Position numbers and translations under genes: made by a program. Positions 56,029-56,220 of a stretch of DNA of 64,000 nucleotides are shown in pieces. Under the pieces are notes generated by a model. It did no database searches and was not told the DNA's origin. It saw nothing but the letters and a program-made list of their open reading frames with translations. Positions within the stretch are counted from its first letter, which is position 1. Each line of letters starts with the position of its first letter. This DNA comes from the human T2T-CHM13v2.0 reference genome, Homo sapiens: the NCBI RefSeq assembly GCF_009914755.1, contig NC_060936.1. The stretch is one strand, 5' to 3'.

Positions 56029-56220
56029 GTCCTCTCGCCGTTGTCTGACTCCATCCTGGCTGAGAAGACGGTGATTGTCCTGGATGACCGAGTCGCCATC
56101 GCGGAGCTGGGAGTGCAGCTCGTAGCTGGCATGTCTCTCTCCCTGCAGCCACACCGAGCAGACAAAAGGGCCATCGTCTCCACAGCCGCTGCCCTGGATG
56201 TTCTTCTGTCCCCACAGCAG
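56029..56220 (+). pseudogene. TMEM132B: TMEM132B-like exon 8 equivalent, open frame, intact splice sites
   Basis: ctgacttttcag|GTC...CAGCAG|gtgagc, 192 nt. [64 protein letters not shown]. Confidence 0.93.

What the first reader, a model, noticed from the sequence alone, without database searches (positions are those of the whole stretch)
56029..56220. One near-pristine TMEM132B exon inside a long-dead paralog
Seen: this 192-nt exon has an open frame, canonical splice sites and 11 CpGs. The flanking exon relics carry stops, frameshifts, a large deletion and a DNA-transposon insertion, and the exon 6 relic has only 4 CpGs. Against my recollection of human TMEM132B, this exon matches 62/64 aa while the exon 6 relic matches about 42/68. 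One old duplication followed by neutral decay cannot give both values. Inference: recent interlocus gene conversion or copying from the functional gene, or, less likely, selection on the exon as part of a transcript.
Basis: partly seen in the sequence, partly recalled or inferred. Interest (0 to 1): 0.8.

Follow-up and report, generated by a model that had tools for sequence, protein, structure and literature searches.

The report
Parent-gene patch in old TMEM132B relic
One exon of a long-dead TMEM132B copy looks almost new because about 730 bases around it were re-copied from the working gene 2 Mb away long after the copy had died, which is an ordinary case of gene conversion rather than a sign of function.

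Summary
Window 56029-56220 is an open 192-nt exon with AG/GT splice sites and 11 CpGs. It matches the genome's own TMEM132B exon 8 at 189 of 192 nt and 62 of 64 aa. The other exon relics match at 78-86% nt (exon 6: 41 of 68 aa), and the rest of intron 8 at 74%.

The high identity is not confined to the exon. It is a 732-bp tract (55790-56521, 96.3% to the parent) reaching 239 bp into intron 7 and 301 bp into intron 8, with sharp ends. A second relic 0.3 Mb away serves as a third sequence, and the tree flips at the tract's 3' end: window and parent pair inside the tract, parent and second relic pair beyond it.

Changes since the copying are symmetric, 13 on each lineage. Both changes private to the window's exon alter conserved residues, so there is no sign of selection.

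Exon 8 carries two anthropoid-specific residues. The exon 6 and 9 relics keep pre-anthropoid states.

The 3' end lies in continuous old homology. The 5' end abuts a truncated LTR-like repeat with a 3-bp microhomology.

The event is millions of years old, not recent. It is a known kind of event and of modest interest.

The parts
55790..56521 (+). Tract copied from TMEM132B (end of intron 7, exon 8, start of intron 8). It is 705/732 sites (96.3%) identical to chr12:125660626-125661359.
   Evidence: Three-way alignment and site classes; BLAST block; sliding identity.
55934..56521 (+). Possible younger core of the tract: 14/588 differences from the parent, against 13/144 in 55790-55933.
   Evidence: Change-point scan with permutation, p = 0.0175. 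The second relic shows a break at nearly the same place, p < 0.0005.
56029..56220 (+). TMEM132B exon 8 copy: open, 64 codons, AG/GT sites, 11 CpGs, 189/192 nt and 62/64 aa identical to the parent. Its donor is the end of exon 2 of the predicted lncRNA LOC124903051 (hub annotation).
55377..55791 (+). LTR-like interspersed repeat, cut short at its 3' end where it meets the tract. The junction (55789-55795) has a 3-bp microhomology, AAT.
   Evidence: At least 3954 candidate copies; 40 scored at 86-90% identity. Five other copies share about 130 further bases, up to an AATAAA, that the window lacks.
56522..56582 (+). Old intron 8 relic between the tract and the repeat insertion. Over 56522-56573 it is about 73% identical to the parent and colinear with it.
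   Evidence: sites where the window alone differs: 12; sites where the window pairs with the parent: 3-4.
56583..57185 (+). Solo-LTR-like repeat inserted in the relic's intron 8. It has TG..CA ends, AGCT/GGCT flanks and no terminal inverted repeats.
   Evidence: at least 4890 candidate copies; 40 scored, full-length copies at 76-82% identity.
57186..57719 (+). Rest of the old intron 8 relic: 384/521 sites (73.7%) identical to the parent, with 66 gap columns.
   Evidence: site patterns (parent pairs with second relic at 108 sites, window with parent at 43, window with second relic at 29).
57720..57951 (+). Exon 9 relic, first part: 184/214 (86.0%), with stops and an 18-bp insertion.
57940..58108 (+). 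Exon 9 relic, last part, following a deletion of about 750 bp of coding sequence: 139/167 (83.2%), with a stop and a frameshift.
39084..39288 (+). Exon 6 relic: 159/205 nt (77.6%), 41/68 aa, a 1-bp deletion, a stop, 4 CpGs.
51316..51452 (+). Weak colinear relic of the parent's intron 6, 67% identical to parent 125658410-125658547. No exon 7 relic follows it.
   Evidence: E 5e-11; 0 matches to the exon 7 domain in the window.
58483..63162 (+). Patchy colinear relic of the parent's 3' UTR and downstream DNA, 69-75% identical. It continues past the window end to about 66722.

Best explanation
The window holds an ancient, dead partial copy of TMEM132B (exons 6, 8 and 9 plus downstream DNA; exon 7 is lost). 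It lies 1.99 Mb downstream of the working gene on the same strand.

Long after this copy had decayed to about 74% identity in introns and 78-86% in exons, about 730 bases around exon 8 were overwritten with parent-gene sequence. This was non-allelic (interlocus) gene conversion, meaning repair of a DNA break in the relic using TMEM132B as template.

Shown:
- the tract and its sharp ends;
- its extension into both introns;
- the flip of the three-sequence tree at its 3' end;
- the direction, parent to relic;
- equal numbers of later changes on both lineages;
- the younger lineage-diagnostic residues in exon 8.

Inferred:
- The date is roughly 10-30 million years ago, in catarrhine or ape ancestors.
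- The tract has drifted neutrally since then. The intact frame, splice sites and CpGs are simply what was copied and has not yet had time to decay.
- The repair route is more tentative. The 3' side was resolved inside the old homology. The 5' side was joined by microhomology to a broken LTR-like repeat, which is coupled homologous and end-joining repair.
- There may have been two nested events.
For: 1. Identity profile. The tract 55790-56521 is 705/732 identical to the parent, with 12 gapped columns. The next 52 bp and the rest of intron 8 are about 73-74% identical. In-tract intron differs at 24/540 sites against 137/521 outside (Fisher p = 9.6e-25).

2. Tree flip, using the second relic (chr12:127.34 Mb, minus strand) as third sequence.
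- In the core 55934-56521, the window pairs with the parent at 38 sites, the parent with the second relic at 7, and the window with the second relic at 7.
- In the rest of intron 8 the same three counts are 43, 108 and 29.

3. Direction.
- Identity between the parent and the second relic runs on across the tract's 3' end. Identity between the window and the second relic falls from 87-97% to 60-77% there.
- The second relic's exon differs from the parent at 8 residues. The window keeps the parent's residue at 7 of these, including R where the second relic has a stop; at the eighth, exon position 60, all three differ (Q, L, H).

4. Clock. There are 13 window-specific and 13 parent-specific changes in the tract.

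5. Cross-species residues (120 TMEM132B orthologues).
- Exon 8 in the window has M at position 35. M is found in human and 3/3 anthropoids, V in 2/2 strepsirrhines, and L in 115/115 others.
- Exon 8 in the window has L at position 56. L is found in anthropoids, Q in strepsirrhines, and L in only 1/115 others.
- The exon 6 relic keeps S at position 66, where anthropoids have A.
- The exon 9 relic keeps F at position 26, where all 5 primates plus human have Y and 114/115 others have F.

6. The parent locus is TMEM132B. Its last exon is 98% identical to macaque and marmoset proteins of that name.

7. 5' junction. The upstream repeat is cut short where the tract starts.
Against: - No other primate genome could be consulted, so the pre-conversion state of the locus was not seen. 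The date rests on a single-genome clock and on recalled primate divergences.
- Homology at the time of the event was low (about 75-85%). Classical mammalian conversion normally needs much better matches, so a non-standard route or a seeding event is required.
- There is no old homology on the 5' side of the tract, so one of the two hallmarks of a conversion tract, a switch inside colinear homology at both ends, is met at the 3' end only.
- Divergence within the tract is uneven: 13/144 sites up to 55933 against 14/588 after it (permutation p = 0.0175). A single event with a uniform rate does not fit perfectly.
- CpG loss in the window's tract is low. By my reading of the site list, about 2 of roughly 18 ancestral CpGs were lost. 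This is slightly fewer than methylated neutral DNA of that age might lose, but the numbers are too small to test.
Confidence: 0.85

Rival explanations
1. Purifying selection has kept exon 8 intact since the old duplication, as part of a transcript (for example the predicted lncRNA that uses its splice donor) or as part of the annotated enhancer.
For: The hub annotation places the end of exon 2 of LOC124903051 exactly at the exon's donor (56220). It also places a RefSeq enhancer at 55147-56346. The frame is open and both splice sites are intact. No CpG of the exon was lost on the window's lineage.
Against: - High identity extends 239 and 301 bp into the introns at 95.6% (24/540 sites differ) and stops abruptly.
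- The window's private rate in the exon (2/192) does not differ from the flanks (11/540; P = 0.25).
- Both private exon changes are non-synonymous. One is at a position that is T in 119 of 120 orthologues; the other is at a position that is Q in all primates sampled.
- Exon 8 carries anthropoid-derived residues that an old, conserved copy could not have, while exons 6 and 9 keep older states.
Confidence: 0.04
2. Assembly or polishing artefact: parent-gene sequence was wrongly pasted into the relic in this assembly.
For: None from the calls. It is raised only because the two loci share a near-identical stretch.
Against: - The tract differs from the parent at 27 sites plus a 2-bp deletion.
- 13 of these differences are private to the window and 13 are private to the parent, judged against a third copy. 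A paste would be identical.
- The tract joins colinearly to the old relic at its 3' end.
- RefSeq annotates a TMEM132B pseudogene at 56020-58203 (hub annotation).
Confidence: 0.01
3. Classical two-sided gene conversion into a relic whose junction with the truncated repeat already existed. The tract simply ran to the edge of homology on the 5' side and stopped near the other repeat insertion on the 3' side. This rivals only the repair route proposed above, not the conversion itself.
For: The tract fills almost the whole uninterrupted homologous segment between two heterologies: the repeat junction at 55789-55795 and the insertion at 56583. The second relic also loses parent homology close by, at parent position 125660534, and also lacks exon 7.
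Against: A tract that ends within a few bases of the homology edge is an unlikely coincidence for heteroduplex-based conversion. At the junction itself AAT is common to repeat and parent, and 55793-55795 read CAC as in the repeat where the parent has TAC.
Confidence: 0.35
4. The window donated the tract to TMEM132B, or both loci received it from a lost third copy.
For: Identity alone is symmetric and does not give a direction.
Against: The parent's similarity to the second relic continues unbroken beyond the tract's 3' end, whereas the window's does not. The shared exon sequence equals the functional, orthologue-conserved state, which a long-dead relic could not have supplied.
Confidence: 0.02

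Closest known systems
Interlocus (non-allelic) gene conversion between a gene and its pseudogene.
   Same: A short tract of a few hundred bases moved between paralogues on one chromosome. It has sharp identity breaks, extends into non-coding flanks, and the tree inside the tract disagrees with the tree outside.
   Different: The direction is gene to pseudogene, so it is harmless. The partners are 2 Mb apart and were only about 75-85% alike when it happened, whereas the textbook pairs are over 95% alike and adjacent. One tract end is a junction with a truncated repeat instead of a switch inside homology.
Coupled homologous and non-homologous repair of a double-strand break, and templated patch insertions. 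Recalled from mammalian cell studies; no paper was read here.
   Same: One end is resolved by homology (the 3' switch at 56517-56523 inside colinear sequence). The other is resolved by a short microhomology (AAT) to unrelated DNA, with loss of the repeat's 3' part.
   Different: Here it is inferred from a fixed germline product millions of years old. The break, the order of steps and the deleted material were not observed.
Unprocessed TMEM132B pseudogene LOC100420119 (RefSeq, hub annotation).
   Same: Same locus. RefSeq's span 56020-58203 covers the exon 8 copy and the exon 9 relic found here.
   Different: The relic is much larger than annotated. It includes exon 6 at 39084-39288 and downstream DNA to beyond the window end, and it is a mosaic of two ages. 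A second, inverted relic at chr12:127.33-127.36 Mb belongs to the same story.

Membership tests
TMEM132B-derived sequence (exon 8) | The translation matches the TMEM132 Ig domains at the exon 8 position | tested here: met
   Pfam Ig_TMEM132_6th scores E 9.9e-7 (29.2 bits, cut-off 27.8). The end of Ig_TMEM132_5th scores E 3.1e-4, which is below its cut-off, as expected for 22 residues.
TMEM132B-derived sequence (exon 8) | Closer to TMEM132B than to the other four paralogues | tested here: met
   98% to the chr12:125.66 Mb locus against 74% to the chr12:128.73 Mb paralogue. The 125.66 Mb locus encodes a protein 98% identical to macaque and marmoset TMEM132B.
Interlocus gene conversion tract | Abrupt change of identity to the donor relative to colinear flanks | tested here: met
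   96.3% inside 55790-56521 against about 73-74% just outside on the 3' side; p = 9.6e-25.
Interlocus gene conversion tract | The tract is not limited to selected (coding) sequence | tested here: met
   239 bp of intron 7 and 301 bp of intron 8 are included, with 24/540 differences.
Interlocus gene conversion tract | Phylogenetic incongruence between tract and flanks | tested here: met
   In the core, the window pairs with the parent at 38 sites against 7 and 7 for the other pairings. In the rest of intron 8, the parent pairs with the second relic at 108 sites against 43 and 29.
Interlocus gene conversion tract | Both tract ends lie inside pre-existing colinear homology | tested here: not met
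   The 3' end does. The 5' end abuts a truncated LTR-like repeat, and no parent homology was detected upstream for 4.3 kb.
Interlocus gene conversion tract | Orthologous locus in an outgroup species shows the unconverted state | not testable with these tools
   No primate genome is held. Only orthologous proteins were available, and they support a younger age for exon 8.
Functional (selected) exon | Fewer substitutions than the neutral flanks, with a synonymous bias | tested here: not met
   2/192 against 11/540 window-specific changes (P = 0.25). 2 of 2 are non-synonymous.

The most novel reading that the evidence does not exclude
Exon 8 of TMEM132B is a repeat donor. It has patched two ancient relics, at 127.34 Mb and 127.65 Mb, at different times and possibly the window's relic twice.

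On this reading the first patch entered a target only about 75-85% identical, by one-ended, template-copying break repair sealed by microhomology in a repeat. Each patch restored enough homology to invite the next.

If so, the locus is a natural, datable record of how conversion can be seeded between very diverged paralogues 2 Mb apart. The 588-bp, 97.6% identical core would now be a plausible source of reverse conversion, or of read mis-mapping, onto the working exon.
Probability: 0.3. Interest if true: 0.45.

Novelty: new member of a known kind. Interest (0 to 1): 0.3.

Why it matters
Biologically the effect is small. A dead gene fragment was partly refreshed from its parent and shows no sign of function.

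It is still useful in three ways:
- It is a clean worked example that a pseudogene can be a mosaic of ages. A single 'age of the pseudogene' or a per-exon identity can therefore mislead.
- It shows conversion, or templated repair, acting across 2 Mb into a target that was already very diverged. One end is sealed in a repeat, which bears on how such events start.
- TMEM132B exon 8 has a 98.4% identical twin, differing only by T to A and Q to L at the protein level. A second copy at 91% carries a stop. Short-read variant calls in that exon deserve a check for paralogue mis-mapping. This point is an inference; no variant database was consulted.

Tried and rejected
- Selection on the exon was rejected; see the rivals.
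- The 'DNA transposon' label was rejected. There are no terminal inverted repeats, the ends are TG..CA with a 4-bp flanking repeat, and the sequence is repeated genome-wide.
- The CpG contrast between exon 6 and exon 8 as evidence of decay was rejected, because the parent's exon 6 also has 4 CpGs.
- I searched for old parent homology between window 51452 and 55789 with word size 7 and found none beyond 51316-51452. Window 51820-55370 is single-copy apart from an old repeat at 53236-54219, so the origin of the 5' flank stays unknown.
- I considered a deletion of exon 7 shared by the window and the second relic. The upstream break points are near each other (parent 125658521 and about 125658547) and so are the downstream ones (125660534 and 125660625). 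However, the window's upstream break is confounded by an Alu-like insertion, so this is left open.
- A three-way alignment beyond window 57960 was unreliable because of deletions. I used pairwise alignments there instead.
- Earlier findings of this scan could not be consulted.
- Literature: 0 papers for LOC100420119, 'TMEM132B pseudogene' or TMEM132BP. The 2 papers holding both 'TMEM132B' and 'gene conversion' are unrelated by title and abstract start in the search listing. No paper was read.
- I did not name either repeat family and did not build any consensus of them.

Full report
**1. The observation**

Window 56029-56220 is flanked by AG (56027-56028) and GTGAGC (from 56221). It is open in the frame starting at its first base.

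Its 64 residues match the end of Pfam Ig_TMEM132_5th and the start of Ig_TMEM132_6th. It has 11 CpGs.

A search of the window's own genome with the 192 bases gave 4 matches:
- itself;
- chr12:125660865-125661056, + strand, 98%;
- chr12:127344637-127344828, - strand, 91%;
- chr12:128728033-128728135, 74%.

The 125.66 Mb locus is the working gene. Its last exon translates to a protein 98% identical to macaque and marmoset 'transmembrane protein 132B'. Matches to the two Pfam domains mark five intact paralogous loci. Only the two relics carry stops inside a match, and the exon 7 domain matches nothing in either relic.

I call the working gene the parent, the window's copy the window relic, and the 127.34 Mb copy the second relic.

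Against the parent, the exon is 189/192 nt and 62/64 aa identical.

**2. The rest of the window relic is old**

Colinear homology to the parent runs from an exon 6 relic at 39084-39288 to beyond the window end, at 69-75% in non-coding DNA.

| Segment | Window coordinates | Identity to parent | Notes |
|---|---|---|---|
| Exon 6 relic | 39084-39288 | 159/205 nt, 41/68 aa | 1-bp deletion, a stop |
| Rest of intron 8 | 57186-57719 | 384/521 (73.7%) | 66 gap columns |
| Exon 9 relic, part 1 | 57720-57951 | 184/214 (86.0%) | stops, 18-bp insertion |
| Exon 9 relic, part 2 | 57940-58108 | 139/167 (83.2%) | follows a deletion of about 750 bp; stop, frameshift |

Exon 7 is missing: the exon 7 domain gives 7 matches in the genome, none in either relic.

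Old exons look better than old intron. That is expected if only the relic's lineage changed freely while the parent's exons were constrained. This accounts for 78-86%. It does not account for 98%.

**3. The high identity is a tract, not an exon**

I aligned the window, the parent and the second relic together. It shows 732 ungapped sites from 55790 to 56521. Of these, 705 are identical between the window and the parent (96.3%). The tract includes 239 bp of intron 7 and 301 bp of intron 8.

Intron sites inside the tract differ at 24/540, against 137/521 in the rest of intron 8 (p = 9.6e-25). Exon 8 differs at 3/192, against 104/586 in the other exon relics (p = 8.3e-11).

The 3' end lies between 56517 and 56523, inside continuous colinear sequence. 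The next 52 bp are about 73% identical. Then comes a 603-bp repeat insertion (56583-57185), and the old homology resumes at exactly the next parent base.

**4. Tree flip and direction**

In the core of the tract, the window pairs with the parent at 38 sites, against 7 and 7 for the other two pairings. In the rest of intron 8, the parent pairs with the second relic at 108 sites, against 43 and 29.

Identity between the parent and the second relic continues across the tract's 3' end. Identity between the window and the second relic drops from 87-97% to 60-77%. The window relic is therefore the recipient.

The second relic's exon differs from the parent at 8 residues. The window keeps the parent's residue at 7 of these, for example R where the second relic has a stop; at exon position 60 all three differ.

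**5. What happened since the copying**

With the second relic as outgroup, 13 changes are private to the window and 13 to the parent. One site differs in all three, and the window has a 2-bp deletion.

In the exon, two changes are private to the window and both change the protein:
- T to A at exon position 23, where T occurs in 119 of 120 orthologues.
- Q to L at exon position 60, where Q occurs in all 5 primate orthologues and 62 of 115 others.

One exon change is private to the parent, a synonymous CpG transition.

The window's private rate in the exon (2/192) does not differ from that in the flanks (11/540; P = 0.25). Nothing indicates selection. The tract looks like neutral DNA that has not had time to decay.

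The 11 CpGs comprise 10 inherited ones, none of them lost, plus one gained. The parent lost one.

**6. Age**

Divergence is 27/732 = 3.7% (95% interval 2.4-5.4%) for the whole tract.

The scan for a change point puts a break after 55933: 13/144 sites differ before it and 14/588 (2.4%; 1.3-4.0%) after it (permutation p = 0.0175). The second relic shows a break at nearly the same place, 35/131 against 38/601 (p < 0.0005). This could mean two nested events or local rate variation, and I cannot tell which.

I recall human-ape and human-macaque divergences of about 1.2-3.4% and about 6%. No call checked these. On that scale, the values place the copying roughly 10-30 million years ago.

Orthologous proteins give independent support (120 proteins).

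Exon 8 in both relics carries anthropoid-derived states:
- M at position 35. It is M in human and 3/3 anthropoids, V in 2/2 strepsirrhines and L in 115/115 others.
- L at position 56, which is anthropoid-specific apart from 1 of 115 others.

The old exons carry older states:
- S at exon 6 position 66, where anthropoids have A.
- F at exon 9 position 26, where human and all 5 other primates sampled have Y and 114/115 others have F.

The old exons also carry two primate-stem states: F at exon 6 position 34 and E at exon 9 position 45.

So the original duplication falls in the primate stem, and the exon 8 copy falls after the anthropoid stem.

**7. The 5' end and the likely repair route**

Upstream of 55790 the window shows no parent homology for 4.3 kb.

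Window 55377-55791 is an LTR-like repeat, with at least 3954 candidate copies and 40 scored at 86-90% identity. All but one of those matches end at window 55789-55799. Five other copies go on together for about 130 more bases, to an AATAAA. The window's copy is therefore cut short exactly where the tract begins.

At the junction, AAT (55789-55791) is common to the repeat and the parent.

Pairwise divergence among repeat copies is about 12%, or roughly 6% each. This is more than the tract's per-lineage divergence, so the repeat was there first.

I favour repair of a break in the relic in which the intron 8 side invaded the parent. About 730 bases were copied leftwards, and the new strand was then joined to the broken repeat by microhomology.

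The alternative is classical conversion running up to a junction that already existed. It is not excluded, and I give it 0.35 as the route.

The low homology at the time (about 75-85%) is a difficulty for any homologous route. The exon would have been the best-matching stretch.

**8. The second relic**

Its background identity to the parent is 66-78%. A stretch of about 2 kb around exons 8-9 is 84-90% identical, and the part overlapping the window's core is 91-95% identical. It too carries the anthropoid M and L in exon 8.

It therefore seems to have been patched as well, at an earlier time. This is what suggests a recurrent donor site.

**9. Known or new**

Gene-pseudogene conversion is textbook. 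This locus is not in print as far as two full-text searches show. RefSeq annotates only part of the relic.

I file it as a new member of a known kind. It has two less common features: a very diverged, distant target, and one tract end sealed in a repeat.

**Limits**

No other primate genome, human assembly, read set, methylation data or variant data was available. The repeat families are unnamed. The dates rest on recalled divergences.

Noticed in passing
L009-L011 (chr12:127330001-127360000, minus strand relative to the gene); exon 8 copy at chr12:127344637-127344828: A second, inverted TMEM132B relic lies 0.31 Mb upstream of the window's relic.
- It covers exon 6 to downstream DNA, and exon 7 is gone.
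- Exon 8 is 91% identical to the window's exon, carries an in-frame stop and has 2 CpGs.
- It is itself a mosaic: 66-78% identical to the parent in most places, but 84-90% over about 2 kb around exons 8-9.
- Its exon 8 carries the anthropoid-specific M and L residues.
   Followed up: partly
window 55790-55933 versus 55934-56521: Divergence is uneven inside the tract in every comparison. Window against parent it is 13/144 and then 14/588 (p = 0.0175). Sites private to the second relic go from 35/131 to 38/601 (p < 0.0005). The cause could be nested conversion events with a shared boundary or a local rate difference; this is unresolved.
   Followed up: partly
window 55789-56521 (window-specific changes): By my own reading of the site list, 7 of the 13 changes private to the window go from A/T to G/C and 3 go the other way. 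Among the parent's 13 private changes the counts are 5 and 7. This may hint at GC-biased repair or at residual unconverted bases. The sample is too small to test.
   Followed up: no
window 57829-57877: A run of 49 bases in the exon 9 relic is identical to the parent, inside a segment that is otherwise 86% identical. This is borderline for chance. It could be a further micro-tract or just the most constrained part of the parent.
   Followed up: no
window 57940-57960: The deletion of about 750 bp in the exon 9 relic has a junction whose bases align to both deletion edges in the parent (TGA..TTC/TCAG-like stretch). This suggests a microhomology-mediated deletion.
   Followed up: no
window 53236-54219: An old interspersed repeat of about 980 bp (copies 71-79% identical) lies in otherwise single-copy DNA between the intron 6 relic and the truncated LTR-like repeat. 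The 1.15 kb at 54220-55370 matches nothing in the parent or the second relic.
   Followed up: partly
window 49325-56220 and 55147-56346 (hub annotation): The predicted lncRNA LOC124903051 ends its 6.9-kb exon 2 exactly at the copied exon's splice donor. A RefSeq enhancer covers the truncated repeat plus the first half of the tract. The copied donor site may thus have been put to use by a transcript. No expression data were available.
   Followed up: no
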